In this document: piece after piece, positions 16,750 through 62,838 of the stretch
Numbering within the stretch: the first letter of the stretch is position 1
Layout: every line of letters begins with the position of its first letter
From: a virus
Lineage: Duplodnaviria; Heunggongvirae; Uroviricota; Caudoviricetes
IMG/VR virus record: IMGVR_UViG_3300008255_000107
Reading direction: 5' to 3' (one strand)
Length of the DNA: 64,000 nt
Notes under the pieces: generated by a model
The model's input: only the letters and a program-made list of their open reading frames with translations
Database searches by the model: none
What the model was told of the DNA's origin: nothing
Program-made: the position numbers and the translations under genes

Positions 16750-18399
16750 ATGGCCACCGGAGTAACTTACCAAGACCTTGACGTGCTTACCCTTAATAGC
16801 AGTGAGAGTTATGTAAACTGTGTTTTCCTTCGAATTAAGAAGATCCAGGTAGCTTCCGCGGGCTCCAATGCCATGGTCACCTGTACATTTACAGACTGCC
16901 CTGACGTACTTTGCGATTTTAGTCTGATGCAAACTTGCGTGGTTACACGCTGTACCTTCACAGTCAACCAAAGCGGCTCTACATTGTACTGGTACTCCAC
17001 GACCGCCACGGATTCTTATTTCTACAAGACTTCGTCCAGGACCGTGTCACTAAGCGCAGGGACTTACACTGGGGGCGTCATAGCGGGAAGGTTCAATGTA
17101 GAGTACAATGGTTCCCCTGTGGTCCTTACGGGTGTTACTGTTAAAGGGTCCCCTGCTTACGACGGGGTACTTTTGGGTAACAACTTGAATATGACGGACT
17201 GTGTTTTCGAAAACATCGTTACTGTGTCCGTAAGTAACCTGAGCCTTGCAAACTGCTCTGGTCCAAAGCCGTCCAAGGTGACTTTGCAGAATTGCTCAGG
17301 AGGAGGTGTCTCCGGGGGTACGTACGACATCCTGATCATGGACGGTGCTAACTCATCTTTTTCTTTCCAGCCCTCTAAAGTTTCGGTGGTAAACTACCCT
17401 AGTTATGGCACATGGAGCTCTGTCCCTCTTACCACCGCCGTGGATACTATACAATACCCCGTACCAATGAACATGACAAGCTGCTCTGTTTATGGTGCTA
17501 AGGGGATAGATGTGCGTAAGCACAGCGTAGCGTGGACTGACGTAACATGGCAGGCTCCCGCCCACAACTTGAAGTTGCCCAGGTTGTCCCGTATCATTCT
17601 AGGCCATCACGCATCCCCCACTACTAACCCTTTTCGAAACTGTGACCTGACGGACTCTCCTCGATTAGAATTCACAGCGGGTGGGTTCTACGTAAGAGAT
17701 TTTGACATGTCCGGCTCCAACCTCTACAACACTCCCTCTGGGGCCATGTTTATGGGGAACAATGTTAAGGGCAGGGGGTGCAACATGAGCAACCTTTTCC
17801 GAGCGGATATCTCCAAGGGTACCACCATTAGGGGTTGGGATTTCCGGGATGCTGTATGGAACGACGCTTATCTAAACGGCCTTAAATTTGTGGATTGCGA
17901 CTTCCGCGGAACAGTGTTTAACGGCGGATACATGCAAAACTGCTCTTTTGCTAATACCTCTTTCAAAGGGGCCAATTTCAATTTTATAGACACCACAGGT
18001 ACGGATTTCTCCGGCGCCGACATGACTTCTGGTTATACCAGGTTCGATGACCAACTATCGGGATGGTCCCCATGGCCATACCAGACCAGCTCCAATGCCT
18101 TTAGCGTTGGATCGGGGCAATCCGCTGCGTTCAGCGTAATTGTTAATTACATAGGACGTAGCATATCCACAGGTCTACTTTCTGGTATCGTCTGGGTCCT
18201 TTCCGAAAAAACGGCAGACAGCCACTATATACAGAGTCTGGTGTCCGTGAATGAGGATTATCTGGATGCGAATGCCATTCAGAAAATCACTGTAAGTGCG
18301 GGTGCATCCATAACTTTCGCTGCGACCCCGGTTGCGGGAAGATATTACCTGGTGGTCAAAAACACAGGAAGCACTACCAGGACTGTGCAGATGCAGTAG
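16750..18399 (+). CDS. pentapeptide-repeat-containing fibre-like protein (549 aa)
   Basis: C-terminal half contains consecutive pentapeptide repeats (FRGTVFNGGYMQNCSFANTSFKGANFNFIDTTGTDFSGADMT). Followed by a terminator. Confidence 0.6.
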   Translation: MATGVTYQDLDVLTLNSSESYVNCVFLRIKKIQVASAGSNAMVTCTFTDCPDVLCDFSLMQTCVVTRCTFTVNQSGSTLYWYSTTATDSYFYKTSSRTVSLSAGTYTGGVIAGRFNVEYNGSPVVLTGVTVKGSPAYDGVLLGNNLNMTDCVFENIVTVSVSNLSLANCSGPKPSKVTLQNCSGGGVSGGTYDILIMDGANSSFSFQPSKVSVVNYPSYGTWSSVPLTTAVDTIQYPVPMNMTSCSVYGAKGIDVRKHSVAWTDVTWQAPAHNLKLPRLSRIILGHHASPTTNPFRNCDLTDSPRLEFTAGGFYVRDFDMSGSNLYNTPSGAMFMGNNVKGRGCNMSNLFRADISKGTTIRGWDFRDAVWNDAYLNGLKFVDCDFRGTVFNGGYMQNCSFANTSFKGANFNFIDTTGTDFSGADMTSGYTRFDDQLSGWSPWPYQTSSNAFSVGSGQSAAFSVIVNYIGRSISTGLLSGIVWVLSEKTADSHYIQSLVSVNEDYLDANAIQKITVSAGASITFAATPVAGRYYLVVKNTGSTTRTVQMQ

Positions 18400-26518: not shown

Positions 26519-27011
26519 ACTTATCCATCATTTTTTCCCGGGCGCTAAACAGCTCGGGTAGGGTTACTTCGTAATCCCGGAACTTACCCTGGGGGTACTT
26601 TAGGTCCAACATTTTCAGGGGGACTTTACTAAAGTCCGCTCCTGCGTACGGGTTTTCATCATAAACACGTGCTACTTTACCATGCCCCAGCCGGGGGTCT
26701 AGGATGTACTCCCCCAGGAGCCTGTGCCATGGTAGCATCTCAGCAACCAATGTAGTCGCCATAAGGGACGCACCCGGGAACCTTTCGTACAAACCTATAC
26801 GCCCTTCATTATCGTAGTTAGCATGGAACCAGAATATATGACCGTTGTACAGAACCAGATGGGGGTAGGAACCACCCCAAGTCGTGGCTGGAAAACAAGC
26901 GCACAAAAAAGTCGTATCGTAGGACCCAGTCAAAGGGATTCTCAAGCGCTCCACCAGCGCAGGTTTATTGCCCTGCTCAATTTTTACAAAATACCCTGGT
27001 CTCATTATCAT
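26511..27011 (-). CDS. hypothetical protein
   Basis: ORF, ATGA overlap with the upstream gene. Confidence 0.45.
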   Translation of the reverse strand: MIMRPGYFVKIEQGNKPALVERLRIPLTGSYDTTFLCACFPATTWGGSYPHLVLYNGHIFWFHANYDNEGRIGLYERFPGASLMATTLVAEMLPWHRLLGEYILDPRLGHGKVARVYDENPYAGADFSKVPLKMLDLKYPQGKFRDYEVTLPELFSAREKMMDKYE

Positions 27012-28195
27012 GATACGTGGTAATCCCTCCCCACCACCTCTTCCACGACACCCTTTCCTTTTGAGTAGGGCTCGATCCAGGTCATGCGACGGAGACTTCT
27101 TTCAGGCCCGTGAGCCTGATTGCGCCAGTGACCCCGAACCACCCAGTGGGGTGAGCTAATGGTGAATGTCTTGAGGGTACCGTTTCTGTAGGCTTGGCGG
27201 AAATCGTGGGTGATGTGCACTGAGGAACCTACAGTCACCACATCTATGTGGCTAAGACCATCGATAACGGGAACCTTACCCTTAACGGCCTTCTTAAACT
27301 TTGCATGGGTCCGGACAAGGTCCGCTGATGGGTTGGTGATGTACATAAGGGCATTCAGTACAAAAGAGAACAGCTTGTGCATGTACTGCTTCTGATCCTC
27401 TCCCCCATCCATTTGTGTGTAACGGTCTGCTGCTGCCTTCACTTGTGGGAATACATCACCAGGGGCCAGGAAAAAGGTCATGTAGAAAGTTGCGTCATCT
27501 AAGGCATTGTCAGAGTTTGCGTTCGGGCCAGCAACCGCTAGGATGCGGATAACCTTGTTGGCGGGTACCCCGTCAAACTTTAGGGCCGGGTGTATACCGT
27601 CCCTGTCCGGTCCACCCTCAAGGGGGAGATTGACTCCCTTCACATCGATGTCGTGCCCGTAGGAGACGTATATACCCTTGACTTTGTGTAACCCCGTCAA
27701 ATGGTTTGGGATGAAAAGCTCTTCATTGTACGGCAGGTCGATGTAAATGGATTCGAAGGGGCTGGTGAGGAAAGAGCTATCCACCTTGGTAAGATCGGTG
27801 TGCAGCAACTTGGCAGTAAGGGCTTCTTCAAAACGGAAGATCATTCGGTTCTTGGAAAACCTGTACGTGTGGTGGAGTACATTCATGACGGAACGATATT
27901 CATTCAGGATGTTGGGGTCTCCCTCATAGATCGTTTTGTAGGCCAGATTCGGACCTTTGTACCCCATGCTGCGGAGCCGGGAGTTGAATATGATTACTGC
28001 CGCTTCCTGGTACGGTGTGTCGTCCAGTGTACTGGGCTCGTAACCGGTCATGTCCCTGAGGGTATTGATTACATCTTGGACGATTTTTAGGGGGCTGACC
28101 CCTAGCATCTTCTTGTATACCCGTACGAATTCCTCGTAATGGGTCTCTTTGAGCTTGGCTGTGGCGCCTTTGTCGGAAATAGCGAGATTAGGCAC
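27008..28195 (-). CDS. hypothetical protein (395 aa)
   Basis: Long ORF, no motif recognised. Confidence 0.5.
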   Translation of the reverse strand: MPNLAISDKGATAKLKETHYEEFVRVYKKMLGVSPLKIVQDVINTLRDMTGYEPSTLDDTPYQEAAVIIFNSRLRSMGYKGPNLAYKTIYEGDPNILNEYRSVMNVLHHTYRFSKNRMIFRFEEALTAKLLHTDLTKVDSSFLTSPFESIYIDLPYNEELFIPNHLTGLHKVKGIYVSYGHDIDVKGVNLPLEGGPDRDGIHPALKFDGVPANKVIRILAVAGPNANSDNALDDATFYMTFFLAPGDVFPQVKAAADRYTQMDGGEDQKQYMHKLFSFVLNALMYITNPSADLVRTHAKFKKAVKGKVPVIDGLSHIDVVTVGSSVHITHDFRQAYRNGTLKTFTISSPHWVVRGHWRNQAHGPERSLRRMTWIEPYSKGKGVVEEVVGRDYHVS

Positions 28196-30707: not shown

Positions 30708-31531
30708 ACCACTGTGTACGACCTAACACCCCCATTTAATAGGATGAACTGGGGTACACCGGGTGGAGGGTCAGTAATGGTTATTAAACCCTTCCCGTCT
30801 GCTGGCATTTCGAAGTCACTATAGAAAGGATAGTTCACCACATCACCGGAATGGTAGGTAACTCGTATGACCCCTAGAGCGCTATCAAGTGACTCTATAG
30901 CCTTGCTGGTGGCCGCGGCTACAGCACGCCGATACTTCTCAATGGTCGCACTCACCATTTTCTGGTTACCGCCGAGGGTCTTGTTACGGACCATGAGGCT
31001 TACCGTTTCTTCCACACTTGGACTAAGAACCTTTTCTAGCTCCTTTTTAAGAGCTGGGTGGTGTGCCGACCAACTCATCTGGAGATGTAGGAGACCACCA
31101 TCGTCCATAGGCACACCCTTAACAAAAATGCATACGCCACTGCAGGCTAATACACTACTGGGTACCTCATAGGATTCTTTGATACCGTCAAGCACTTGCC
31201 CCACCAGATTACGGATTGCCCCACTGACATTGAGTTGGTAATCATCCATTTCAAACCACACAAGGGGTATGCCTATAAGTGCAAGGGTAACCTTACGGGT
31301 TTTTTTGACCTGTACACTAAATTCGTAGCCCGCGTAGGACAATAAAGCATTGTCCCCGTTTCTTCTCAAAGAAACAGATTCACCCTCGAGGGAACTAGGT
31401 GTGCTTTTGTGCAACTTCTCGGTGAGGACTTCCAAACCTTTTTGGAGATATTCGCCTTGCTCCCGTATAAACTCTTCTTCAGACTTACTATAAATAATCA
31501 CCCGGCACCTACTTATTAATGAGGATCCCAT
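30671..31531 (-). CDS. hypothetical protein
   Basis: ORF. Confidence 0.45.
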   Translation of the reverse strand: MGSSLISRCRVIIYSKSEEEFIREQGEYLQKGLEVLTEKLHKSTPSSLEGESVSLRRNGDNALLSYAGYEFSVQVKKTRKVTLALIGIPLVWFEMDDYQLNVSGAIRNLVGQVLDGIKESYEVPSSVLACSGVCIFVKGVPMDDGGLLHLQMSWSAHHPALKKELEKVLSPSVEETVSLMVRNKTLGGNQKMVSATIEKYRRAVAAATSKAIESLDSALGVIRVTYHSGDVVNYPFYSDFEMPADGKGLITITDPPPGVPQFILLNGGVRSYTVVWKEEKWEDIFQ

Positions 31532-32075
31532 TAGGGGTTTGAGTTTTAAAAATCAGATCTTCCCTAGAATATCTGGTCATGAGCTGTATGCTTAAGCTCC
31601 TAAAAGATAATCTATCATACGTCACAAATCCAAGGTCCAAAGCGGACCCCATAGGGAAAAAGGTATCGCACTTATGGGTACCATCTAGTTTGGTAACGTA
31701 AATCTCCGAAACTTCTGGTATGGTGAGGGACTGACCATAAACTGATCCGCCCCCTATGACAAAGACCTTGCCTACACCCGAGATAGTTTTTAGAGCTACA
31801 CTAAGGTTGGCAAACACCCTCACTTCCTCGGTAGCCCCATCGACCTTGCCTGAGTGGGAAATAACCACATTGACGCGGTCCTTGAGAGGTCCTGGTAAAC
31901 TTTTCCACGTATTGTACCCCATGACCACAGCATTTGGTTTACCCTCGACAAAGGGGTACGTGGTAAGCGTACGGAACCACTTGAAGTCGTCCTTATTGTG
32001 CCAGGGCATAGCCCCGTCTTTCCCTATACCGTACTCGTCATCGACGGCGGTAACCAATGCTATGTCATTTCTCAT
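31509..32075 (-). CDS. folA: dihydrofolate reductase
   Basis: IALVTAVDDEYGIGKDGAMPWH..DFKWFRTLT ... VVMGYNTWKSLPGPLKDRVNVVIS matches the DHFR fold signature. Adjacent to thyA, as in the T4 frd-td arrangement. Confidence 0.8.
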   Translation of the reverse strand: MRNDIALVTAVDDEYGIGKDGAMPWHNKDDFKWFRTLTTYPFVEGKPNAVVMGYNTWKSLPGPLKDRVNVVISHSGKVDGATEEVRVFANLSVALKTISGVGKVFVIGGGSVYGQSLTIPEVSEIYVTKLDGTHKCDTFFPMGSALDLGFVTYDRLSFRSLSIQLMTRYSREDLIFKTQTPNGILINK

Positions 32076-32087: not shown

Positions 32088-33065
32088 CTAAATGGCGATG
32101 GGCATCTTAACAGCTTCCTGGGGATCGTAACCCTTGAGGATGTCTGAAGCCTTTTCCGGTGGTTCCCATGAAAAGATATCAATCTTTTCAGGAAGTTCCA
32201 GAGTGGGCAGCTTACCCGGTGTCCTGGACAACAAGATGTCCACACCTTCCTGCTGGTTCACATAGTAATGAACATCTGCCAGGAACCCAATCAACTTACG
32301 TGGAATCATACCCACGTGCCGGGCGATGAGTTCCAGGATCAGTCCATAACTGGCGATGTTGAAGGGGAGCCCTAGGGGGGTATCCACGCTGCGTTGGTTC
32401 CACAGCAGGTCCACGTGCTTACCATCGGAAAGGATCTGAAAGCTGTAGTGGCAAGGAGGTAAAGCCATTTGGTCAAGTTTTGCTGGGTTCCAGGCACTGA
32501 CGATCATGCGGCGATCAAACGGATTGGTCTGGAGCTTTTCAATCACATTTTTGAGTTGGTCCACACCAAGATTTGGCTGCATCTCTCGGTCCATGTATTC
32601 CTTAATGACCCTCCGGGTATCAATAGAACTGGAGGGTAGGCTATCGATAGCCACGAGCATAGCAGCCATGGCGCTGAACTTGCGATTCATCTCGTGTGTC
32701 GTGTCACGGTTAAAACCGCGCCATTGTACACCGTAGATCTCCCCAAGATCGGTTTCCTCTGCCATCTTGGCCTGGGTGGCCTCATCGGTACCGTATGGTA
32801 CCTTCTTGGGGTTTGCCCATTGGTTCCAGATGTTACAGTTGCGGTCCTTGAGCCACTGCTTGTTGTTGTACCCGCGAAGAAAGAAAACAGCTTCAGTAGC
32901 TACCGTCTTGAATCCCACCTTCTTGGTGGTCTGCAGAGGGAACCCTTCACGCATGTCATGTTCGAACATGGCACCTGTGATGGAAATGGTATCTATGCCC
33001 GTACGGTTTTCCTTTAGAATACCGTTTTCCTTAATCTTACGTAAGATGTCTAAATAGGATTTCAT
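32088..33065 (-). CDS. thyA: thymidylate synthase (ThyA type)
   Basis: RRMIVSAWNPAKLDQMALPPCHYSFQ (active-site Cys within the ALPPCH motif), NIASYGLILELIA and DVHYYVNQ. Confidence 0.9.
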   Translation of the reverse strand: MKSYLDILRKIKENGILKENRTGIDTISITGAMFEHDMREGFPLQTTKKVGFKTVATEAVFFLRGYNNKQWLKDRNCNIWNQWANPKKVPYGTDEATQAKMAEETDLGEIYGVQWRGFNRDTTHEMNRKFSAMAAMLVAIDSLPSSSIDTRRVIKEYMDREMQPNLGVDQLKNVIEKLQTNPFDRRMIVSAWNPAKLDQMALPPCHYSFQILSDGKHVDLLWNQRSVDTPLGLPFNIASYGLILELIARHVGMIPRKLIGFLADVHYYVNQQEGVDILLSRTPGKLPTLELPEKIDIFSWEPPEKASDILKGYDPQEAVKMPIAI

Positions 33066-33085: not shown

Positions 33086-33901
33086 TTACTTGAACATACC
33101 ACTGCGGAATATGTGACTCTTAGGAAGTGAATCGGTATCGTAGTGTGATGTGCCGCTAACCGCCTGGTCTGAGGTAACACCCACATGCCTATCAAGCGCG
33201 TGGTGAGGCCCAGTTACACCATGGTGGTACAACGCAGGCCCAGTTACACCCCGATCCGACAGGCCTTCTTCCGATGGGTCGTTGTATCCTTGTATTCCCA
33301 AGGTGGCTATTTTCCCATCTTTGGCGATAGCAGCAGTCTCGTGTTGCATCACGTGGTAGTACAGGTCCCTGGTCCACTTGGCATCCACAAGGGCATTGTG
33401 AGCCCCTACGGGGTCAGGTAGCGAACTAGCACCACTGGCGTCCATGATCTGTTTAACGTCCCTGCAGTACATGGGGAATCCCTTAGGTAGATCCACCATC
33501 TTACCAAAAAGCCAGCAAAACACGACCCAGTCATATGCCGCATAATAGCCCCAGAACTCTGGATTGGTGGTTTCCGCATGGACGAATTCAATGATCTCCT
33601 GAGCGATAACCCTCTTAGGCTTACGCAGCCTTCGGACGGGAAGATCTTTCAGAACATTAGCCTTTACCCAGGAGTCTGCTTTGGATGAGTCAAATTCCTG
33701 GGATACAGCATAATACTCCCTGCCTGAATCGCTCACTATCCCTATGGATACCAAATCGATGCTGCAGGGGTATTCTATGAATTCAGTGTCCAGGAAAAAC
33801 TTCACATTCCCACGTCCACCCATGTGGACCCGGGAAGCCCTGGGGGCAGAAGTTTCTTCCTGGTATAACCATTCTTCTTTGATCTTAGCCATCTTCTTCA
33901 A
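33086..33901 (-). CDS. DEDDh-family 3'-5' exonuclease
   Basis: Exo I FLDTEFIEY, Exo II AYDWVVF and Exo III HNALVDAKW motifs. N-terminus MAKIKEEWL. Confidence 0.6.
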   Translation of the reverse strand: MKKMAKIKEEWLYQEETSAPRASRVHMGGRGNVKFFLDTEFIEYPCSIDLVSIGIVSDSGREYYAVSQEFDSSKADSWVKANVLKDLPVRRLRKPKRVIAQEIIEFVHAETTNPEFWGYYAAYDWVVFCWLFGKMVDLPKGFPMYCRDVKQIMDASGASSLPDPVGAHNALVDAKWTRDLYYHVMQHETAAIAKDGKIATLGIQGYNDPSEEGLSDRGVTGPALYHHGVTGPHHALDRHVGVTSDQAVSGTSHYDTDSLPKSHIFRSGMFK

Positions 33902-34148
33902 CAGCCAGGATGTCGGTACGTTCCAGCACGGCTACAGTTTCACCACCATGGGTGATTTCCATAGCCTTATCCACCGCGTAGAAAACGGTTTTACCTACCA
34001 GTGGGTCTTCTTCGTTGGAAAACATGACCACACCCTTACGGACACGGCTATCGTCCCTTGGGTTGGTGATGGTGAGACCGGATGCGGTTACAGTTTCTTT
34101 TTCGTCGTCCACAGTTACTAGGACGCGACCGTTCATGGGCTTGAGCAT
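33885..34148 (-). CDS. groES: co-chaperonin GroES
   Basis: 87 aa. Pattern RVLV..DE.ET.T.SGL.I ... DILAV matches GroES. Immediately upstream of groEL. Confidence 0.8.
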   Translation of the reverse strand: MLKPMNGRVLVTVDDEKETVTASGLTITNPRDDSRVRKGVVMFSNEEDPLVGKTVFYAVDKAMEITHGGETVAVLERTDILAVEEDG

Positions 34149-34202
34149 GATACTCTCCTCGTGTAAAATGAAAAGGGGCCTGGATCGACCCCTTTATGGT
34201 TT

Positions 34203-35828
34203 TCAGTAATGGTTGAGATCGGTTGCCTGAGTAGAAGCACGATCGTAGGTGATGGCGCAACTGGCTGTAAGCAACATACCTGCGATGGATACCGCGTTAC
34301 GGAGAGCCGTTACAGTTACCTTCACGGGGTCAATGACACCAGTCTCCAAAAGATCCTCGTACTTACCAGTATGGGCATTAAAACCCTTCTCGATACCTTC
34401 GTTGATCTTTTCGATGATGATGTCAGGGCTTTGGCCGGCATTCAGAAGAATGTTACGGATAGGTGCTTCGATGGCCTTTAACACGATATTATAGCCACGA
34501 ACCTGTTCAGGGCTCATGTCCACAGGAGCCTGGAGATTTTTACGGGCCAATATCAAAGCTGTTCCGCCACCGGGCACGATGCCTTCTTCCACGGCGGCGC
34601 GAGTGGCATGCATGGCATCTTCCACACGGTCGCGAAGTTCCTTGGCTTCCACTTCCGATCTACCACCAACATAAACCACGGCCATGGCTCCGGAAAGCTT
34701 TGCCACACGGTTCAAGATCTTTTCGCGATCATACTCGGACTCAGTGCTCTTTGCTGAAGCCTGCAGGGCTTCCACACGTGCATGCACTTGTTCGGGGTCA
34801 CCCATGGGTTCGAAGATGGTTGTGGTCTTGCTGGAGATGCGTACGCGGCCAGCTTGGCCCATCTTTTCTACACTGGCTTCGGATAGGGGTAAACCACCTG
34901 AGGAGGCGTCACCAAACACTTCACCACCCAATGCAGTGGCCATGTCATACATGTTGTCATTTTTCTGATCACCGAAACCGGGGATACGAATGACAGTCAT
35001 GTTCACAGCACCCTTAAGCACGTTGGCCAGAATCTGATCCAAAGCGGGCTTGCTGATATTGTGGCAGACTAACACGATTGGAGGACGTTCCTTCACCTTG
35101 AGAACTGATTCGATGCCCGGCAAAATTTCCTGGATGGTGGCCACGTTCTTGTTCACCAAGAAAAACACAGCATCGCTGATGTTGATTTCCGAGGAGTTTT
35201 CTGCAGTGATGAAATGAGGAGAAACCATACCCTCAGGAAGTTCCATACCTTCAATGAATTCCAAGCGGATACCCGGTTCACTACCTTCTTCGATAGTCAC
35301 CACGCCCGCTTGACCCACCTTATCAATGGCTTCAGCCAGTACCGCCCCAATCTTGGGTTCGTTGTTGGCGGAGATGGTTCCCACACGAGCCACAGTTTCC
35401 AGATCGTCGGCAGGTTTTGCCATATGGCGAAGTACCACTTCCAGGTCGTCGACGGCACGGTCCATACCGCGCTTGAGTTCCACAGGAGAACCACCATTCA
35501 GAATGACTCGAACGCCTTCGTCCGTGACAGCTTGTGCCAGCACCGTAGCGGTAGTCGTACCGTCACCGGCTTCGTCACAAGTCTTGGCGGCTACATCCTT
35601 GGCCATTTGGGCACCAAGGTTTTCAAAGGGGTCTGCGAGATCGATCTCTTTGGCTACAGAAACACCGTCTTTCGTTACAGATGGTGATCCGTACCCACGT
35701 TCGATGATTACGTTTCTGCCACGGGGTCCCAAGGTTTCCTTAACGGCATCAGCCAATTGGTCCAGGCCGGACTTCAGGGCTTTGATGGCTTGGTCTCGGA
35801 AAATGAGATTCTTGGGTCTATCTTGCAT
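34203..35828 (-). CDS. groEL: chaperonin GroEL (Hsp60)
   Basis: LGPRGRNVIIERGYGSPSVTKDGVSVAKEI ... AGDGTTTATVLAQA. Full 541-aa GroEL without the GGM tail. Confidence 0.9.
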   Translation of the reverse strand: MQDRPKNLIFRDQAIKALKSGLDQLADAVKETLGPRGRNVIIERGYGSPSVTKDGVSVAKEIDLADPFENLGAQMAKDVAAKTCDEAGDGTTTATVLAQAVTDEGVRVILNGGSPVELKRGMDRAVDDLEVVLRHMAKPADDLETVARVGTISANNEPKIGAVLAEAIDKVGQAGVVTIEEGSEPGIRLEFIEGMELPEGMVSPHFITAENSSEINISDAVFFLVNKNVATIQEILPGIESVLKVKERPPIVLVCHNISKPALDQILANVLKGAVNMTVIRIPGFGDQKNDNMYDMATALGGEVFGDASSGGLPLSEASVEKMGQAGRVRISSKTTTIFEPMGDPEQVHARVEALQASAKSTESEYDREKILNRVAKLSGAMAVVYVGGRSEVEAKELRDRVEDAMHATRAAVEEGIVPGGGTALILARKNLQAPVDMSPEQVRGYNIVLKAIEAPIRNILLNAGQSPDIIIEKINEGIEKGFNAHTGKYEDLLETGVIDPVKVTVTALRNAVSIAGMLLTASCAITYDRASTQATDLNHY

Positions 35829-35913
35829 ATTATCCTCTCGATTTCGGGGTTCCCCCGGTATGTTGTTCGATGGGATAATATAGAGGACTAATGCTATTTT
35901 TTAAACCAACATC

Positions 35914-36975
35914 CTAGAAAATAATTTTCACCATAGCGGAGTAACCGTACACAGCTTCGTAGTCCGAGTATTCCTCGGTGAATTGGTCCTTGTACTCCTG
36001 CAGGTCGTGGCCAACGGGTACGTGCCCTTCGTTTACTCCCACGGGGTAAATCTGAGATGCGGGTGCCGCGTAAGATGTCTTAACGAAGGCTTCTGCAGAG
36101 GCCCTCATACGGAAGTTACCCAGTCTGAAATTCATACCGACTATGACAGATGCATCGAGGTTAGCCAGAAGATCATATTCTTCATGACTAAGGTAATAGC
36201 CATCCAGTCCCACATCCTGATTTTCACCGAGGGGGCTTTCCGAAACACCGACGGTACCCTGAAAGGTATAGGTTAAGTACAATCGTCCCGAGGGGTCGGG
36301 AGCACGGAATATGCCGGCAACAAACCCATTCACTTCCTTATTGTATGGTCCACGGGTGCTGAGTACCTTCACATTACCGTTGTCGTCCACCTGGCCTATG
36401 CGGAGCAAACGAAGTGTTCGAAAGCGCTGATACTCTGCCACCATACCTACGGCACCAGGTCTTGATCTACCATAAGCCTTTAACCCCACTTTAAGCATGC
36501 TGGAGGTATAAGCCTTGTGTGAGTCGGATCCTAAGGTGTATGTTCCGTACCTATTGAAGCTACGAAGCAGGTACAGGTCCACTTGGTCGTTACTAAGTCC
36601 TAACTCCAAAAACTTGGCCAGATCCTCTTTTCGAAAAAAGTCTTCACGAGTTGTACCGTTTTTGAATCGTTGGATGGCGGAACTTACCTGCTCATCATAG
36701 TAGGCAGCCCGAAGGGTGTACTGGCGGGAAATGACTTCAGCCTTGATGCCCTGGCGGTCATCCCACTTGGAGTCAACTTTCATCTTCTGGGTTTCCCCAT
36801 CAGAGTAGACGTAGTGGTCTCCGTCCACATACTTGTACCCACTACCCTCCGTTACTATGGCTACCCCAAAGTATAGGGTGTCGTCTTCGCCCTGGATGTC
36901 CAAGTCGAAGTCCATGGTATTGGAGGCGCTGCATAAACCGGCTAAAATGATCAGTGTTGTGAATAGATTTTTCAT
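35914..36975 (-). CDS. secreted protein or lipoprotein, hypothetical
   Basis: Signal peptide MKNLFTTLIILAGLCSASN (possible lipobox LAGLC). Confidence 0.5.
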   Translation of the reverse strand: MKNLFTTLIILAGLCSASNTMDFDLDIQGEDDTLYFGVAIVTEGSGYKYVDGDHYVYSDGETQKMKVDSKWDDRQGIKAEVISRQYTLRAAYYDEQVSSAIQRFKNGTTREDFFRKEDLAKFLELGLSNDQVDLYLLRSFNRYGTYTLGSDSHKAYTSSMLKVGLKAYGRSRPGAVGMVAEYQRFRTLRLLRIGQVDDNGNVKVLSTRGPYNKEVNGFVAGIFRAPDPSGRLYLTYTFQGTVGVSESPLGENQDVGLDGYYLSHEEYDLLANLDASVIVGMNFRLGNFRMRASAEAFVKTSYAAPASQIYPVGVNEGHVPVGHDLQEYKDQFTEEYSDYEAVYGYSAMVKIIF

Positions 36976-37051
36976 ACTTACCTTTCCCTGTGTGTAAGTA
37001 TATAGAAAGGGTCCCCGCTTTTAACGAGGACCCCCACGGTTACTACTCTAA

Positions 37052-44258: not shown

Positions 44259-45113
44259 TTATGAGATGGGGCCCAATCGTGATACGGAGTTAACCCCATC
44301 CACGTAACGACCACTAAAGGTAGCACCGCGGGGTAAGAAACCTTTGAACCCATCGGCGATTGCCTTAGCATTCCATTCCTCGAAATTAGACCACACGTTA
44401 TCCTGGCAGTGGTATAGCCACATCTTGGCTTTAACCTCAGCGGGGAAAGTACGAAGATCGTCGTAGTGGGCGTGGACACCCGAACGGAATCCAGTTTCAC
44501 AATCATGGAAGATCACATCCGACTCCCCATAATAGGCCCTCATGGTGGTCTCAGGGCTAAACTGGGTGTCGGTGGTCAGAAAATATCGTATACCCACGTC
44601 GGGGTCATTCCACATCAGTCCGTACGAGCTGCAGGTCATGTACTTGGCTGTCACATGGGTAGTCTGGACGATGTCAAACGTAATGTCCTTCCAGGTGAAA
44701 CTTTCATTTCTGTTCACAGGTCGAAGGTCAAAATAGGTGGACAGGGATACGATACGCTCACCTTCCAAGTAGCTGGTACCTTCTAAACCTTCTAGGCCAC
44801 CACGTAATGACTTCTCCCAGGCCTCATTCATTAAGCCACCTTCCATGTAAAGGGTAGGCTTTTCTCGTCCCGGTATAAATTTAGTGACCTGCCCCAAATT
44901 CTCCACCCCACCAATGTGGTCGTTGTGAAGATGGGACACGAAGAAAGCGTTGATGTCGTTGATAGTCTTACCCTGCTGCCTAAGGGCATGCCTGGCGTCC
45001 CCACCACAATCCACTAGGAAATTCTCATTATCCCTAGTGATCAATAAGTTGGAATGCCAATTGTACTCGTAGCTGCAATTGGCGGAACCTGTTCCAATGA
45101 AGTTTAAAATCAT
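44259..45113 (-). CDS. metallo-beta-lactamase-fold hydrolase
   Basis: HLHNDHIGG (the HxHxDH motif) and downstream His/Asp ligands. Confidence 0.6.
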   Translation of the reverse strand: MILNFIGTGSANCSYEYNWHSNLLITRDNENFLVDCGGDARHALRQQGKTINDINAFFVSHLHNDHIGGVENLGQVTKFIPGREKPTLYMEGGLMNEAWEKSLRGGLEGLEGTSYLEGERIVSLSTYFDLRPVNRNESFTWKDITFDIVQTTHVTAKYMTCSSYGLMWNDPDVGIRYFLTTDTQFSPETTMRAYYGESDVIFHDCETGFRSGVHAHYDDLRTFPAEVKAKMWLYHCQDNVWSNFEEWNAKAIADGFKGFLPRGATFSGRYVDGVNSVSRLGPIS

Positions 45114-45208
45114 GGTGTATCCTTGGGTTTGCTATTTCCTTATATAAAGATAGGGCTCCCTTTTATCTAAAAAAGAGAGCCCCATCACACTGTGTTGTTC
45201 TTCACACC

Positions 45209-46105
45209 TTATATTCTTCTTCGGAACTTGTCCCAGAACCAATCTTTCTGCCAACCCCTTCCGTCATGTGGACTCACGGGGTCCACGGGGTCCACGGGGT
45301 CTGGATCGGGAGGAACCACCGGATCTACGGGATCTGGGTCTGGGGGTACCACGGGATCTGGTTCAGGAGGGATTACAGGATCAGGCTCCGGCGGCACCAC
45401 AGGGAGAGAACCTGAGTCTGCATCGATGGTAGTCCACACTTCCCAATGATCACCCCAATCCGAGTAGGGGAACAACGTGAGTCCTTCTACGCCCCAATAG
45501 TTACCCCAGCTGTTCCGGATTATGAATCCAAAGGGGTTGTACCCCACTACCGCCATAGCATGCCCGCCTATGTAGGTATCCCCTTCAAAGGCATGCCATA
45601 ACCTTGTAGTGGTATTGAGCACGGGTACAGCCATGACACAAGGTCCATTCGCATACAAAGCGTTTTTCAGCCCTTCAATAGTTAGGACCTGGGCATAGGC
45701 GCTGATCTTATACTGGGCAGCTTTGCCTAGCACAGTAGCATTGGGCTCAGACAGATTCCAGTAAACAAAGTCCTCTTCGAAGCAATCCCCGTAATTCCTT
45801 AGGATGTTCATGAGATCCCTCATGTACATTCCCTCGGCTGGGGCGTTACTTCTCAAGTTGTAAATGAACTGAGGGGACATGTAACCACCGTAGGCCACAT
45901 CCTGTTTCTCTTGCCATTCCTTCATGGCGGCGCCGGCCATCGCCGCACAAGTTCCCTGTGAACCTTGGTCCCTAATCGGATTCATCTCTGAAGCGTAGGA
46001 CAGGTACATAGGGAGTTGTGTGCTATAGGGTACGAGGTTTTCCGAGATATAATCTCGTCTGTCCACCGGACTCTTGATTACGTTAAGATGAAATTGCATT
46101 ACCAC
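45209..46105 (-). CDS. papain-like (C1 family) cysteine peptidase with a C-terminal Pro-rich PEPDPV repeat tail
   Basis: QGSQGTCAAMAGA (catalytic Cys in QGxCGSC-like context), a downstream His in GGHAMAVVGYN, and NSWG. C-terminal (PPEPDPV)n. Confidence 0.65.
   Translation of the reverse strand: MVMQFHLNVIKSPVDRRDYISENLVPYSTQLPMYLSYASEMNPIRDQGSQGTCAAMAGAAMKEWQEKQDVAYGGYMSPQFIYNLRSNAPAEGMYMRDLMNILRNYGDCFEEDFVYWNLSEPNATVLGKAAQYKISAYAQVLTIEGLKNALYANGPCVMAVPVLNTTTRLWHAFEGDTYIGGHAMAVVGYNPFGFIIRNSWGNYWGVEGLTLFPYSDWGDHWEVWTTIDADSGSLPVVPPEPDPVIPPEPDPVVPPDPDPVDPVVPPDPDPVDPVDPVSPHDGRGWQKDWFWDKFRRRI
45270..45400. repeat. tandem degenerate repeats (ggatctgg/ggtccacgggg units) encoding the PEPDPV proline-rich tail
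   Basis: Visible direct repeats in the sequence. Confidence 0.6.
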
Positions 46106-46881
46106 CCCTTAAGCGAAGGCCAGTCAGTCAACAAGTAGGTTAGCAATTCCACAATCTTATCGAACCAGCTACGCTTTTTGACGGGCTTGATGCTGTTTTC
46201 GTCAATCGTGGTCCAGGCTTCCCAAATCCATCTCCAGTCTTCGTAGGGGAGTATCGTGTAACCCTTGTCTCCCCACTCTGGTCCCCAACTGTTTCTGAGT
46301 ATGAACCCCTCATAGTTGTAGCCTACCACAGCCATGGCATGCCCACCGAGCATCAACTCCCCATATTCCTTAAGCCACATGCGGGGACCGTTGTTGTAAA
46401 CCGGTACGGCCACGAGGCACACACCATTGGTGTTCAGGGCCAGCTTCATGTTATCGATGTCCTCGATCTTGGCATACCCCTTTATCTTGAAGTTGGAGGC
46501 TTTAGCCAACACATCCTCATTAGCCGCCTCCGTAGACCCGTAGGGGTAGTCCTCTTCAGGACAATCACCGAACTTATTCAGGATCCTCATGAGATCACGC
46601 GGATACATACCTTCTACTGAGGTATTCTCCCTTAGGTTGTAAATGAACTGAGGGGAGAAGTACCCCTCGTGTTGGATGTCCAATTGCTCCTGCCATTCTT
46701 TCATGCAGGCAGCCGACATCGCCACACAGCTACCCTGGACCCCTTGGTTCCTGATGGGGGGCAGCTTAGGTCTTAAATCCAAAACGCTAGGGAGTTCCTG
46801 GCCTTGGGTTAGTAATTTTCTGGTTTTCCAATCCCTTTCGTCTACTGGACTTTTTTCCAGTTTCAGCAAGTTAGCGTTCAT
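46099..46881 (-). CDS. papain-like (C1 family) cysteine peptidase, tandem paralogue of 45209..46105
   Basis: QGVQGSCVAMSAA, GGHAMAVVGYN, NSWG. The same domain order as the downstream gene, which indicates tandem duplication. Confidence 0.65.
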   Translation of the reverse strand: MNANLLKLEKSPVDERDWKTRKLLTQGQELPSVLDLRPKLPPIRNQGVQGSCVAMSAACMKEWQEQLDIQHEGYFSPQFIYNLRENTSVEGMYPRDLMRILNKFGDCPEEDYPYGSTEAANEDVLAKASNFKIKGYAKIEDIDNMKLALNTNGVCLVAVPVYNNGPRMWLKEYGELMLGGHAMAVVGYNYEGFILRNSWGPEWGDKGYTILPYEDWRWIWEAWTTIDENSIKPVKKRSWFDKIVELLTYLLTDWPSLKGW

Positions 46882-47649: not shown

Positions 47650-47663
47650 GTGGTTACCTCTCT

Positions 47664-48941: not shown

Positions 48942-50270
48942 ATGGCAACTTCCTTGAATCAAGCCCGCCACAATAAGGTGCATACCCACGAAGGGGCACC
49001 TGTCATTAAAGTTGGCGCCCACGAAGAACTTACCCGTACCGTGTGTTCCTGCTTGCTTTTCGAAAAAACTTTCTACGAAAGTGGTCAATCTGTCGCGGAC
49101 CGCATCCGGGGTCTGGTACCCCGGTGTGACCCACTGTTCGTCGCTGACACGGCTATCCGTGCCCGTAACGAAATGAAACTACGTCACGTGCCCCTTCTCC
49201 TGGCACGTGAGCTGGCTCGGGAACCTAAGAGCCGCAATCTGTTGGTGTCGTTGCTCCCCAACATCATCAACCGTGCCGACGAACTCGCTGAGTTCATGGC
49301 CATCTACTGGAGCGAAGGCCGTTCACCTGTGGCCTACGCTGTACGCCGTGGCCTTGGAGCAGCTTTCAACAAGTTTGACGAATACCAATTCGCCAAATAC
49401 AACCGTGACAAGGATATCAAGCTTCGTGACGTCCTCCGTGTGGTGCATCCTGTGCCCAAGGATGACGCTCAGTCAGCTATCTTCAAGAAATTGAAGGAAG
49501 GTACCCTTGCTACTCCCGATACCTGGGAAGTAGCTCTGTCCGCATGCAGTGACAAGTCCGCCGAGTGGACTCGTCTTTTGAAGGAGCATAAACTCGGAGC
49601 TATGGCCCTCCTTCGGAACTTGCGTAACATGGGAGAAGCAAACGTGGATCGTGCCTTGGTACGAGAAGAACTGGCTAACGCCAGAACTGACAAGATCCTA
49701 CCTTTCAGATTCATCTCCGCTGCGGACCACAATCCCCATCTGGAAGATGTGCTGGAAACTATGATGCTCAAGAACCTGGAAGGAATTAAAAAGCTTCCTG
49801 GTAAAACTGTACTCCTATCTGATGTTTCCTGGTCTATGGACGACAAGCTGTCCGCCAAGTCCACTATGAAACGAGATGACGCTGCCAGTGGCATCGCCGT
49901 CATCACCCGGGAATTGTGCGAGGAAGTAGAGATCTACGCCTTCGGCAACAATATCTATGCAGTGCCTAACCGCCGGGGTTTCGCTCTTCGCGAACGTCTC
50001 AAAGCCAAACAGGAAGGAACCAAACTGGGTCAGGCTGTCGAGTACATTCAAAAAAATGTACCCTGTGACCGAATCATCGTCTTCACTGACGAACAAACCC
50101 AAGACCGTATCCCTAATGCCGCAAAAGGTGTCAAGGGCTACATCGTGAATGTGGCCGCTAACCAAAATGGCGTGGGGTACGACGGTGGCTGGGTCCATGT
50201 ACACGGTTGGAGCGAATCCGTGATGCGCTACATTTCCGAGTACGAAGACCTGGGGTCCAAAGATGCGTGA
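48942..50270 (+). CDS. rsr: Ro60/Rsr homologue (TROVE domain plus von Willebrand A domain with MIDAS)
   Basis: N-terminal NQ..N...G ... TFYESGQ, LRDVLRVVHPVP (human Ro60 LLRLSHLKP), ALLRNLRNMGEA (Ro60 ALLRNLGKM), ILPFRFISA (IHPFHILIA). vWA MIDAS VLLSDVSWSMDD (Ro60 LLAVDVSASMN) and IVFTDEQT (IVFTDNET). SD AGGAGA upstream. Confidence 0.8.
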   Translation: MATSLNQARHNKVHTHEGAPVIKVGAHEELTRTVCSCLLFEKTFYESGQSVADRIRGLVPRCDPLFVADTAIRARNEMKLRHVPLLLARELAREPKSRNLLVSLLPNIINRADELAEFMAIYWSEGRSPVAYAVRRGLGAAFNKFDEYQFAKYNRDKDIKLRDVLRVVHPVPKDDAQSAIFKKLKEGTLATPDTWEVALSACSDKSAEWTRLLKEHKLGAMALLRNLRNMGEANVDRALVREELANARTDKILPFRFISAADHNPHLEDVLETMMLKNLEGIKKLPGKTVLLSDVSWSMDDKLSAKSTMKRDDAASGIAVITRELCEEVEIYAFGNNIYAVPNRRGFALRERLKAKQEGTKLGQAVEYIQKNVPCDRIIVFTDEQTQDRIPNAAKGVKGYIVNVAANQNGVGYDGGWVHVHGWSESVMRYISEYEDLGSKDA

Positions 50271-62256: not shown

Positions 62257-62838
62257 CTATTTTTCAACCAAAGAAAAAAAATGTTCTCGGTTGCAGAACA
62301 CATCTTTTCTGCTTTTAGGTACTTTACCTTTTCTTTTTGAAAAAGTGCAGCCACACCAAGAACAAGTGAAACTTTCGTATTGCATTTTTTTCCTATGTTC
62401 TTTAGAATGCTGGGAGGCGGTCATCACCTCTAGGTTATTGGGTCTGTTATCCTTCTTGTCCCCATTGACATGGTGAACTACCTCTCCAGGTTTTAGTAAC
62501 CTGCCTAAGGACTTCTCAGCAACTAGGCGATGCTCAAGTACGTACCCTGATCCTCGTAGGTCCTTCCCTTCGTATCCCGCAGGAGCCTTAACAGCCCAAT
62601 ACCCCGACCACCAGATTCTTTCTTTTATGGGCACATGTATTCTGCCATTTTGTATCTTTCTTAATCGCTCCCTTTTCTGATGGGATCTGTATTCAGAAGT
62701 AAACTTTTCAGGCTGGGGTATGTCTCGTACCCAAGCGGATACCGAGGACTTAGCTACCCTAAGATTAGCAGCTATAATGGTTATGGGTAAACCCTCTTTC
62801 CTGAGTTTACGTGCCTCTTCTCTTTGCTTTTTCTTCAT
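62257..62838 (-). CDS. HNH homing endonuclease with an N-terminal HTH/NUMOD-like region
   Basis: [42 protein letters not shown] (HNH motif). Basic N-terminus with an HTH. Inserted next to the tRNA cluster. Confidence 0.7.

What the first reader, a model, noticed from the sequence alone, without database searches (positions are those of the whole stretch)
33885..35828. Complete GroES-GroEL chaperonin pair in a phage-like context, adjacent to the thyA-folA-exonuclease block
Both chaperonin subunits are encoded with bacterial spacing (GroES 33885..34148, GroEL 34203..35828), directly downstream of nucleotide-metabolism genes. Phage GroEL or GroES alone occur sporadically. A full pair is uncommon and suggests folding of the very large repetitive structural proteins encoded nearby.
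Basis: partly seen in the sequence, partly recalled or inferred. Interest (0 to 1): 0.5.

Follow-up and report, generated by a model that had tools for sequence, protein, structure and literature searches.

The report
Phage GroEL-GroES chaperonin pair, reversed order
An uncultured giant phage carries its own protein-folding machine (GroEL plus a trimmed-down GroES lid) with the two genes in the opposite order to bacteria; the pair is real, but this arrangement was already described in marine viruses in 2017, so it is a new example and not a new kind of system.

Summary
Window 34203..35828 encodes a 541-aa Cpn60/GroEL and 33885..34148 an 87-aa Cpn10/GroES. Both are on the minus strand, so the order is GroEL > 54 nt > GroES, the reverse of bacterial groES-groEL. 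The window matches a 208,623-bp metagenomic contig exactly. It is 93% coding, mostly ORFans, with tRNAs, anti-defence genes and no housekeeping genes, so it is best read as a jumbo phage. The GroEL is only 42-47% identical to any bacterial GroEL, while bacterial phyla are 65-78% identical to E. coli. It forms its own metagenomic clade, and in 9 of 9 clade contigs GroEL precedes the small ORF. ATP-site residues are intact, the C-terminal GGM tail is absent, and ring-interface residues differ. The GroES keeps a mobile loop (G-L-T-I) but lacks the roof hairpin, and it diverges about twice as fast as GroEL. Marine et al. 2017 described exactly this class: reversed viral GroEL>GroES operons with roofless GroES, and 40% of their GroEL contigs carried GroES. 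The pair is therefore not rare. The proposal that it folds the giant repetitive proteins nearby has no support. Verdict: a real, self-contained phage chaperonin system, a new member of a known kind, of low to moderate interest.

The parts
34203..35828 (-). GroEL (Cpn60, group I chaperonin large subunit), 541 aa, first gene of the pair
   Evidence: Pfam Cpn60_TCP1 199 bits and PHROG 5725 482 bits. Best PDB matches are bacterial GroELs at E 1e-146 to 1e-136. Collinear with E. coli GroEL apart from 1-2 aa indels and a 13-aa C-terminal deletion. D52, D87, T89-91, D398, G415/416 and D495 are conserved. There is no GGM tail. R197E, E257P, E461S, S463D and A109N are changed.
33885..34148 (-). GroES (Cpn10 co-chaperonin), 87 aa, second gene. 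It has a mobile loop with G-L-T-I, and the roof hairpin is deleted
   Evidence: Pfam Cpn10 35.5 bits against a cut-off of 21.1, and PHROG 3188. Alignment with E. coli GroES shows a gap at the roof hairpin, about E. coli residues 46-57. PDB profile hits are all Cpn10. The AF2 model's top 35 Foldseek hits are all Cpn10, including T4 gp31.
34172..34195 (-). Stem-loop in the GroEL-GroES spacer: 9-bp stem, 6-nt loop, followed by a T-rich run. It is terminator-like or an RNA-stability hairpin
   Evidence: Terminator-like site. MFE -14.7 kcal/mol, z -2.25. Hairpins of different sequence lie at the same place in L025, L026 and L031. Similar hairpins occur in nearly every intergenic spacer of 45 nt or more in the window, so this is a generic genome feature and not a dedicated regulator.
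34155..34160 (-). Shine-Dalgarno GAGGAG, 6 nt before the GroES ATG
   Evidence: Read directly from the sequence.
35833..35839 (-). Shine-Dalgarno GAGAGGA, 4 nt before the GroEL ATG
   Evidence: Read directly from the sequence.
35877..35905 (-). Sigma-70-like promoter candidate (TTTAAA - 17 nt - TATATT) in the 85-nt gap upstream of GroEL. Weak evidence
   Evidence: Consensus scan, 9 of 12 matches. The number of such sites in the region is no higher than in shuffles.
33086..33892 (-). Rv2179c-like / RNase H-like 3'-5' exonuclease. Its ATG overlaps the GroES stop (ATGGCTAA), so it is probably translationally coupled. Context gene, not part of the chaperonin
   Evidence: Pfam PF16473 42 bits and PHROG 2259 178 bits. 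Gene call of 268 aa on the source contig. The overlap was read. The same GroES-exonuclease adjacency occurs in L037.
32088..33065 (-). Thymidylate synthase (thyA). Conserved downstream neighbour of the chaperonin genes in all relatives
   Evidence: Pfam Thymidylat_synt 276 bits. Synteny.
31509..32075 (-). Dihydrofolate reductase (folA). Conserved neighbour
   Evidence: Pfam DHFR_1 108 bits. Synteny.
35914..36975 (-). 353-aa ORF directly upstream of GroEL. A 353-aa ORF lies at the same position in L025 and L029, compared by length and position only. It has a signal-peptide-like N-terminus and ends ...YGYSAMVKIIF. Function unknown
   Evidence: ORF. No Pfam or PHROG hit. A 353-aa ORF sits at the same position in L025 and L029.

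Best explanation
This is a self-contained group I chaperonin system of an uncultured large (jumbo-size) phage. A GroEL and its own GroES lie on the same strand in the reversed order GroEL>GroES. They are co-oriented and probably co-transcribed with an exonuclease-thyA-DHFR nucleotide-metabolism block. Shown: both proteins are full-length members of Cpn60 and Cpn10. GroEL keeps every ATP-binding and hydrolysis residue examined and is collinear with E. coli GroEL. GroES keeps the Cpn10 fold and a mobile loop with glycine plus a mostly hydrophobic tripeptide (G-L-T-I). The pair and its order are conserved in a clade of metagenomic phage contigs. The GroEL lineage is far from every cellular GroEL. 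Inferred: GroEL forms heptameric rings that bind non-native protein on the apical domains. ATP binding recruits the phage GroES through its mobile loop to cap the ring, and the client folds inside. Loss of the GroES roof hairpin and of the GroEL C-terminal GGM tail would enlarge the cage, as in the T4 gp31-GroEL complex. The most likely clients are the phage's own folding-limited proteins, such as the major capsid protein, not the giant repeat proteins nearby. Carrying both subunits makes folding capacity independent of the host's GroEL/ES. The fast divergence of GroES may reflect co-adaptation to the phage GroEL.
For: Domain calls are above curated cut-offs. PDB sequence and fold matches are exclusively chaperonin. 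Functional residues are conserved and GroEL is collinear with E. coli GroEL. GroEL precedes the small ORF in 9 of 9 clade contigs: the window, L025, L026, L027, L028, L029, L030, L031 and L037. The small ORFs reach Cpn10 at 35.5 and 33.5 bits (above cut-off) and at 20.2, 16.7 and 16.3 bits (just below). Viral context: exact match to a 208,623-bp contig; 93% coding, mostly one strand; 7 tRNAs; PHROG tail-fibre and lytic-transglycosylase hits; Apyc1-like and AcrVA2-like anti-defence genes; intein-bearing RNR, NAD-ligase and HNH; no housekeeping genes on any of the related contigs. It is not a recent host copy. Identity to bacterial GroELs is 42-47%, while bacteria from different phyla are 65-78% identical to E. 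coli. It forms a separate clade in an NJ tree, and the best of 185,579 reference genomes is at most 47% identical. G+C shows no anomaly. The literature describes this same class: reversed order, roofless GroES, polar residue in the loop tripeptide, large genomes (PMC5649160).
Against: No capsid, portal or terminase gene lies inside the window, and I could not read beyond it, so the viral assignment rests on gene content and not on a hallmark gene. The sequence is not in the IMG/VR collection and has no cultured relative. Physical interaction of the two proteins, ring stoichiometry and clients are all inferred. Apical residues that contact GroES and substrate are partly changed (Y199M, Y203H, V264A). 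The sister clade keeps GroEL-thyA without any GroES, which shows this GroEL lineage can apparently do without a linked co-chaperonin. The small ORF in L028/L029 is not recognisable as Cpn10.
Confidence: 0.8

Rival explanations
1. It is simply the host's groESL heat-shock operon on a bacterial chromosome or a mis-binned bacterial contig.
For: The GroEL is a typical full-length group I chaperonin whose best solved relatives are bacterial. No virion hallmark gene was found in the window.
Against: The gene order is reversed. In 80 bacterial control loci Cpn10 lies upstream in 57 and downstream in 1. Identity to any cellular GroEL is only 42-47%, against 65-78% between bacterial phyla. There is no GGM tail, no CIRCE element and no sigma-32-like promoter. 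The surroundings are ORFans, tRNAs, anti-defence genes, an intein-bearing RNR and HNH, with no housekeeping genes on about 10 related contigs.
Confidence: 0.03
2. The two proteins do not work as a dedicated pair. Either the phage GroES mainly re-programmes the host GroEL (T4 gp31/CocO style), or the phage GroEL works without a lid (phage EL gp146 style). In that case adjacency is historical.
For: The sister clade has GroEL-thyA with no GroES. In L037 three small ORFs separate GroEL from GroES. GroES diverges much faster than GroEL, at 25-40% against 55-68% identity. Lid-independent phage chaperonins exist (PMC7185714).
Against: The GroEL-before-GroES order is kept in 9 of 9 clade contigs across deep divergence. 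This GroEL is 42.5% identical to E. coli GroEL and collinear with it, unlike gp146, which is 22% identical with many indels. The apical hydrophobic positions that bind the GroES loop (L234, L237, L259, V263) stay hydrophobic.
Confidence: 0.13
3. One reading: the pair exists to fold the very large repetitive structural proteins encoded nearby.
For: Large proteins are encoded within about 25 kb: a 1796-aa ORFan, 659-aa and 549-aa pentapeptide-repeat proteins and a 469-aa collagen-like fibre. A roofless GroES and tail-less GroEL would give a somewhat larger cage.
Against: From established knowledge the GroEL/ES cis cavity accommodates about 60 kDa, and a 200-kDa protein cannot be enclosed. The chaperonin genes sit in a nucleotide-metabolism block that is syntenic across relatives whatever large genes are nearby. 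Known phage clients are a 56-kDa capsid protein (T4) and a 32-kDa endolysin (EL).
Confidence: 0.07
4. The 87-aa ORF is a decaying, non-functional remnant of GroES.
For: It is shortened (87 aa against 97 aa) and highly divergent. Only 6 proteins among 1.84 billion representatives match it at E<=0.001.
Against: The reading frame is intact with a strong Shine-Dalgarno. The motifs that matter are kept: N-terminal GRvLV, the loop Gly plus tripeptide, and C-terminal DILAV. It passes the Pfam cut-off end to end. A roofless GroES is a recurrent, apparently functional viral form (T4 gp31; PMC5649160).
Confidence: 0.04

Closest known systems
Viral 'GroEL>GroES' operons of the virioplankton (Marine et al. 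2017, ISME J 11:2479, PMC5649160)
   Same: GroEL upstream of GroES on the same strand. GroES lacks the roof hairpin. A polar residue sits inside the mobile-loop tripeptide (here G-L-T-I). The viral GroEL is divergent from cellular ones. The genome is large.
   Different: Those contigs were marine and mostly short, with hints of podovirus-like Cellulophaga-phage relatives and a conserved downstream ORF from fosmid Oxic3_1. Here the contig is 208 kb and the downstream genes are exonuclease-thyA-DHFR. I could not test whether this GroEL falls inside their clades GroEL>GroES-1 or -2.
Bacterial GroEL/GroES (E. coli groESL; PDB 1AON)
   Same: Same two folds, the same ATP-site residues, collinear sequence and a similar spacer length. 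The expected mechanism is the same.
   Different: The order is reversed. Identity is 42.5% (GroEL) and about 28% (GroES). There is no GGM tail and no roof hairpin. R197E, E257P and the ring-interface residue E461 are changed. No heat-shock promoter or CIRCE match was found.
Phage T4 gp31 / RB49 CocO co-chaperonins
   Same: A phage-encoded Cpn10-fold lid lacking the roof hairpin, thought to enlarge the cage for the capsid protein. gp31 (1G31) is among the fold matches (literature).
   Different: T4 and RB49 encode only the lid and use host GroEL. Here the phage brings its own GroEL. By sequence the window GroES is closer to bacterial Cpn10 than to gp31, which is not hit in the sequence search.
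Pseudomonas phage EL gp146 (and OBP and AR9 homologues, from memory): lid-independent jumbo-phage chaperonins
   Same: A jumbo-size phage encoding its own Cpn60-family chaperonin.
   Different: gp146 is only 22% identical to GroEL with many indels, does not bind GroES, has no linked co-chaperonin and cycles to single rings (PMC7185714). It is absent from the top 60 PDB matches of this GroEL.
Flavobacterium phage immuto / Cellulophaga phage phi38:1 GroES>GroEL pairs
   Same: Cultured phages of 70 kb or more that encode both subunits.
   Different: They have the canonical GroES>GroEL order, and their GroEL is only about 41% identical to this one.

Membership tests
Cpn60 / GroEL (group I chaperonin large subunit) | Full-length Cpn60_TCP1 domain above the curated threshold | tested here: met
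   199 bits against a cut-off of 34.3, residues 25-523. E 1e-136 to E. coli GroEL chains.
Cpn60 / GroEL (group I chaperonin large subunit) | Nucleotide-binding and hydrolysis residues (GDGTTT with D87, D52, D398, GGG 414-416, D495) | tested here: met
   All are identical to E. coli in the window protein and in 10 relatives.
Cpn60 / GroEL (group I chaperonin large subunit) | Hydrophobic apical surface (helices H/I) that binds substrate and the GroES loop | tested here: inconclusive
   F204, L234, L237(I), L259 and V263(L) stay hydrophobic. Y199M, Y203H and V264A are changed.
Cpn60 / GroEL (group I chaperonin large subunit) | Assembly into heptameric rings (double ring) with ATPase activity | not testable with these tools
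   Ring-interface residues differ (E461S, S463D, A109N). The oligomeric state is unknown.
Cpn10 / GroES | Cpn10 domain above the curated threshold and the Cpn10 fold | tested here: met
   35.5 bits against 21.1, covering profile positions 2-92 of 93. Top 35 Foldseek PDB hits are all Cpn10. A clade profile without bacterial sequences hits only Cpn10.
Cpn10 / GroES | Mobile loop with a conserved Gly followed by three small hydrophobic residues | tested here: met
   S-G-L-T-I aligns with E. coli G-G-I-V-L, with a polar Thr at position 2. The same variation is seen in 23% of viral GroES.
Cpn10 / GroES | Roof beta-hairpin closing the dome. Typical of cellular GroES but not universal | tested here: not met
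   About 10-12 residues are missing at E. coli positions 46-57 in the window, L031, L026 and L025. The same deletion is known in T4 gp31, CocO and viral GroEL>GroES clusters.
Cpn10 / GroES | Heptamer that binds GroEL-ATP | not testable with these tools
   No multimer modelling or biochemistry is available.
Viral GroEL>GroES operon class (Marine et al. 2017) | GroEL immediately upstream of GroES on the same strand of a viral contig | tested here: met
   The order is conserved in 9 of 9 clade contigs.
Viral GroEL>GroES operon class (Marine et al. 2017) | GroEL falls in their phylogenetic clades GroEL>GroES-1 or -2 | not tested
None of 22 IMG/VR GroEL loci (33-45% identity) had the reversed arrangement.
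Viral GroEL>GroES operon class (Marine et al. 2017) | Large dsDNA viral genome (>70 kb) | tested here: met
   The source contig is 208,623 bp. The viral nature is inferred from gene content and not from a hallmark gene.
Bacterial groESL heat-shock operon | Order groES then groEL | tested here: not met
   Reversed here. The bacterial control gave 57 upstream against 1 downstream.
Bacterial groESL heat-shock operon | Heat-shock control element (CIRCE or sigma-32 promoter) upstream | tested here: not met
   There are 0 matches to CIRCE with up to 3 mismatches and 0 to a sigma-32-like pattern in the whole window. The host is unknown, so this is only weakly informative.
Bacterial groESL heat-shock operon | Sequence nested within cellular GroEL diversity | tested here: not met
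   It is 42-47% identical to all bacteria, against 65-78% among phyla, and forms a separate clade.
Phage EL gp146-type lid-independent chaperonin | No cognate co-chaperonin, and about 22% identity to GroEL with many indels | tested here: not met
   An adjacent Cpn10 is present. The GroEL is 42.5% identical to E. coli GroEL and collinear with it. gp146 properties come.
T4 gp31 / CocO-type system | Phage encodes only the co-chaperonin and uses host GroEL | tested here: not met
   The phage encodes its own GroEL.

The most novel reading that the evidence does not exclude
The pair could be an orthogonal, enlarged-cage chaperonin that is insulated from the host system. A tail-less GroEL with a rewired ring interface (E461 lost clade-wide, R197E, E257P) might cycle as a single ring like mitochondrial Hsp60. 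It would be capped by a roofless, fast-evolving GroES that recognises only the phage GroEL. This would give an uncultured jumbo-phage lineage private folding capacity for its capsid. The sister lineage that lost GroES would show a natural transition towards lid-independent chaperonins of the phage EL type.
Probability: 0.2. Interest if true: 0.5.

Novelty: new member of a known kind. Interest (0 to 1): 0.25.

Why it matters
It adds a well-documented example, with conserved synteny across about 10 metagenomic contigs, to the class of viral GroEL>GroES operons. It shows that the class also occurs in a jumbo-size phage lineage with no cultured relatives. The clade offers a natural series for studying how lid dependence evolves in chaperonins and how phages tune cage size. 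The series runs from long GroES to roofless GroES to no GroES, and in two relatives GroEL has an intein-like insertion in the ATP motif. None of this changes current understanding. No viral GroEL>GroES pair has been characterised biochemically as far as I could find, so this is a reasonable candidate for expression but not a discovery.

Tried and rejected
(1) A dedicated attenuator between GroEL and GroES. A stable hairpin lies in the spacer and recurs with different sequence in three relatives. Almost every intergenic spacer of 45 nt or more in the window folds into a comparable hairpin, so I rejected it as a specific regulator.

(2) A functional link between the chaperonin and thyA/DHFR. The adjacency is conserved, but so is the whole region from NAD-ligase to the AcrVA2-like gene. 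It is therefore best explained by shared ancestry.

(3) A mobile GroES-exonuclease cassette without GroEL, suggested by L037. This was rejected because L037 begins with the last 19 codons of a GroEL that is 95% identical.

(4) IMG/VR relatives. The 22 loci found are only 33-45% identical. None shows the reversed pair and two show the canonical pair. The window itself is not in IMG/VR.

(5) Single-sequence AlphaFold of GroES gave pLDDT 48.7 and was unusable. A 6-sequence alignment then gave pLDDT 74.

(6) Reading past the window edge for capsid or terminase genes failed, because two window proteins were not on record.

(7) tblastn of the 1796-aa and AAA proteins against cultured phages gave no match.

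(8) The first PDB profile search included E. coli GroES and was therefore circular. I repeated it without E. coli.

(9) Rfam on the structured 1089-1489 region found nothing.
Full report
1. THE OBSERVATION

ORF listing shows a 541-aa ORF at 34203..35828 and an 87-aa ORF at 33885..34148, both on the minus strand. The large one matches Pfam Cpn60_TCP1 (199 bits, E 1.6e-58) and PHROG 5725 'chaperonin groEL' (482 bits). The small one matches Pfam Cpn10 from end to end (35.5 bits against a curated cut-off of 21.1) and PHROG 3188 'co-chaperonin GroES'.

Transcription runs GroEL (35828->34203), a 54-nt spacer, then GroES (34148->33885). This is the reverse of the bacterial groES-groEL order.

Each gene has its own Shine-Dalgarno: GAGAGGA before GroEL and GAGGAG before GroES. 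The GroES stop overlaps the ATG of the next gene (ATGGCTAA), an Rv2179c-like/RNase H-like exonuclease. That gene is followed by thyA and DHFR.

2. PHAGE OR CHROMOSOME

- The window matches a 208,623-bp metagenomic contig exactly (ENA ERZ27293386 k141_252269).
- It is 93% coding, mostly on one strand, with 67 ORFs, most of which have no family match.
- It carries 7 tRNA genes.
- Annotated genes include a collagen-like tail-fibre-type protein, a lytic transglycosylase, glycosyltransferases, an NAD-ligase, an RNR large subunit of 1536 aa with LAGLIDADG intein signatures, a Ro60/TROVE protein, an HNH endonuclease, and Apyc1-like and AcrVA2-like anti-defence genes.
- No ribosomal or other housekeeping gene appears here or on about 10 related contigs.
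- G+C is flat across the chaperonin genes.
- No capsid, portal or terminase gene lies within the window, and my attempts to read beyond it failed. The viral assignment is therefore strong but rests on gene content.
- There is no cultured relative.

3. NOT A HOST COPY

Against trimmed alignments, bacterial GroELs from Gammaproteobacteria, Betaproteobacteria, Bdellovibrionota and Balneolaceae are 65-78% identical to E. coli GroEL. The window protein is 42-47% identical to all of them. It falls in a separate clade with metagenomic proteins P0002-P0011 (57-69%), with a sister group P0013-P0023 (about 50%).

A scan of one genome for each of 185,579 prokaryotic species found nothing above 47% identity, and the best hits scatter over many phyla. 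In those 80 bacterial loci, Cpn10 lies upstream of GroEL in 57 and downstream in 1. No CIRCE element or sigma-32-like promoter is present.

4. CONSERVATION OF THE PAIR

Every contig of the clade has GroEL followed by a small ORF of 82-108 aa and then thyA, usually with DHFR. NAD-ligase often lies upstream and an AcrVA2-like gene downstream (L025-L031).

The closest GroES relative (59% identity, found by an exhaustive phmmer search that returned only 6 hits in 1.84 billion representatives) lies on L037. L037 begins with the last 19 codons of a GroEL 95% identical to the window's. It then has three small ORFs, GroES, the same exonuclease (64% identity) and, further on, thyA (73%). GroEL-before-GroES therefore holds in 9 of 9 contigs.

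How well the small ORFs are recognised as Cpn10:
- The window's and L027's pass the Pfam Cpn10 cut-off.
- Those of L031, L025 and L030 are just below it.
- L037's carried only a weak precomputed Cpn10 hit.
- L026's aligns with the others but scores nothing.
- Those of L028/L029 are not recognisable.
- A profile of seven of them, with no bacterial sequence included, hits only Cpn10 chains in the PDB (18 of 18, best 3e-11).

GroES partners are 25-40% identical where their GroELs are 55-68% identical, so the lid evolves about twice as fast. The sister clade keeps GroEL-thyA-DHFR with no GroES in between.

5. ANATOMY OF THE PROTEINS

GroEL is collinear with E. coli GroEL apart from 1-2-residue indels and a 13-residue C-terminal deletion that removes the GGM repeats. 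Residue comparison with E. coli:
- ATP-site residues D52, D87, T89-91, D398, G415/416 and D495 are all conserved.
- Apical hydrophobic positions are mostly kept (F204, L234, I237, L259, L263) and partly changed (Y199M, Y203H, V264A).
- R197E and E257P are clade-wide.
- The ring-interface residue E461 is lost, and S463 and A109 are changed.

GroES aligns with E. coli GroES over its whole length. It keeps the N-terminal GRvLV and C-terminal DILAV strands and a mobile loop, S-G-L-T-I against G-G-I-V-L. It lacks the roof hairpin, as do the copies in its three closest GroEL-clade relatives (L031, L026, L025). The other subclade has longer, variable inserts at that position. An AlphaFold model from a 6-sequence alignment (pLDDT 74) matches only Cpn10 structures in its top 35 PDB hits, with T4 gp31 at rank 28.

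6. REGULATION

A promoter-like site lies in the 85-nt gap before GroEL, and a terminator-like hairpin lies in the GroEL-GroES spacer. Hairpins of unrelated sequence occupy the same spacer in L025, L026 and L031. That looked like a conserved attenuator which could set the GroEL:GroES ratio. However, nearly every spacer of 45 nt or more in the window folds into a similar hairpin. It is a general feature of this genome and I do not claim a specific role.

7. COMPARISON WITH WHAT IS KNOWN

Marine et al. 2017 (PMC5649160) reported the following:
- Viral GroEL clades track the presence and orientation of GroES.
- 133 of 337 GroEL contigs carry GroES, and 70 of those are in the reversed GroEL>GroES order.
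- GroES from the reversed operons lacks the roof hairpin.
- 23% of viral GroES have a polar residue in the loop tripeptide.
- Such viruses have large genomes.
- The capsid protein is the probable client.

The window fits every one of these points. Bracher et al. 2020 (PMC7185714) also list phages with both homologues as a recognised category. They contrast these with phage EL gp146, which is 22% identical to GroEL and lid-independent. Cultured Flavobacterium phage immuto has an annotated canonical GroES>GroEL pair, while the Vibrio phages checked have GroEL only.

The finding is therefore a new member of a known kind. What is specific here:
- the jumbo-size, uncultured lineage;
- the conserved placement in an exonuclease/thyA/DHFR block;
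- the graded series within the clade, from long GroES to roofless GroES to no GroES.

The best-supported reading is a self-contained, ATP-driven folding cage that makes the phage independent of host GroEL/ES. The loss of the lid's roof and of the GGM tail probably enlarges the cage. That the two proteins are Cpn60 and Cpn10 with intact catalytic and loop motifs is shown. That they bind each other, the ring number and the clients are inferred.

The proposal that the pair folds the giant repeat proteins nearby is not supported. Those proteins (about 50 to 200 kDa) mostly exceed what a GroEL/ES cage can enclose, according to established knowledge. The synteny of the whole region also argues that neighbourhood reflects descent and not function.

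9. VERDICT

The finding is real, correctly identified, and in a phage context. The gene order was mis-described, the rarity was overstated, and the functional speculation is unsupported. Interest is 0.25. The most novel reading still open is an orthogonal, possibly single-ring, enlarged-cage system, with probability about 0.2.

Noticed in passing
window 48042-48117 (-) and 48362-48438 (-), inside the 1054-nt non-coding stretch 47650-48703, next to the Ro60/TROVE gene 48942..50270 (+): Two YrlA (Y-RNA-like) covariance-model matches (41.7 and 38.4 bits, E 2e-7 and 2e-6, below the gathering score of 69) lie beside a phage-encoded Ro60 homologue (Pfam TROVE 56 bits). This looks like a phage Ro60/Y-RNA module. 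The region is highly structured (MFE -363 kcal/mol).
   Followed up: partly
window 54537..59147 (-): The ribonucleotide reductase large subunit is 1536 aa. Its barrel domain is split into two stretches and it has a LAGLIDADG_3 domain (85 bits), so it probably carries one or more inteins. It also has a TSCPD domain.
   Followed up: partly
L028 5659-8295 and L029 8001-10637 (proteins P0009, P0010, P0012; 878-881 aa): GroEL relatives carry an insertion of about 335 aa exactly inside the ATP-binding GDG|TTT motif. The insertion ends ...VVTHN|TTT and has a weak LAGLIDADG hit (17.5 bits). It is an intein-like element in a phage chaperonin. The small ORF that follows these GroELs is not recognisable as Cpn10.
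   Followed up: partly
window 35914..36975 (-): A 353-aa ORF sits directly upstream of GroEL and has no family match. It has a signal-peptide-like N-terminus and a C-terminus ending YGYSAMVKIIF, which resembles an outer-membrane beta-barrel signal. An ORF of the same length sits at the same position in L025 and L029. This may hint at a Gram-negative host.
   Followed up: no
window 44259..45113 (-) and 27008..28195 (-): Two anti-defence-type genes: an Apyc1-like (anti-Pycsar) metallo-beta-lactamase-fold protein and an AcrVA2-like protein. The AcrVA2-like gene is also conserved downstream of thyA-DHFR in relatives L027, L031 and L036.
   Followed up: no
L035 6001-8535 and L036 6001-8770: Sister-clade contigs (GroEL about 50% identical; contigs of 174,663 bp and 25,661 bp) have GroEL followed by thyA with no GroES. 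In L036 a 199-nt gap holds no plausible ORF. The co-chaperonin was apparently lost or never gained.
   Followed up: partly
L037 79-1174: In the closest relative, three small ORFs (146, 59 and 87 aa, no family) are inserted between the 3' end of GroEL and GroES, and about nine small ORFs lie between the exonuclease and thyA. This is local mosaicism inside the otherwise conserved block.
   Followed up: partly
L026 9332-10915; window 32088..33065 (-): thyA of L026 is 527 aa, with the Thymidylat_synt domain split into two stretches, which suggests an inserted element. The window's thyA (325 aa) and those of L036/L037 are about 40 aa longer than the 285-299-aa versions in other relatives.
   Followed up: no
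window 1089-1489: A 401-nt stretch with no ORF of at least 60 aa in my ORF set has a very stable predicted fold (-145 kcal/mol). It has no Rfam match at E<=1.
   Followed up: partly
window 62840-63628 (-) and 62257..62838 (-): A cluster of six tRNA genes (Gln x2, Met, Ile-tat, Phe x2) lies next to an HNH endonuclease gene. A seventh tRNA (Arg-cct) is at 43754-43827.
   Followed up: no
window 5734..6987 (-), 45209..46881 (-), 9139..11118 (-), 16750..18399 (+), 11137..16527 (-): Unusual cargo for a phage: a GH5 cellulase (155 bits), two tandem papain-like (Peptidase_C1) paralogues, two pentapeptide-repeat proteins, and a 1796-aa ORFan with no match in Pfam, PHROGs or cultured phages.
   Followed up: no
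window-wide intergenic spacers, e.g. 36976-37051, 45114-45208, 54485-54536: Almost every intergenic spacer of 45 nt or more folds into a stable hairpin with a 9-20-bp stem. This suggests gene-by-gene terminators or RNA-processing and stability elements throughout this genome.
   Followed up: partly
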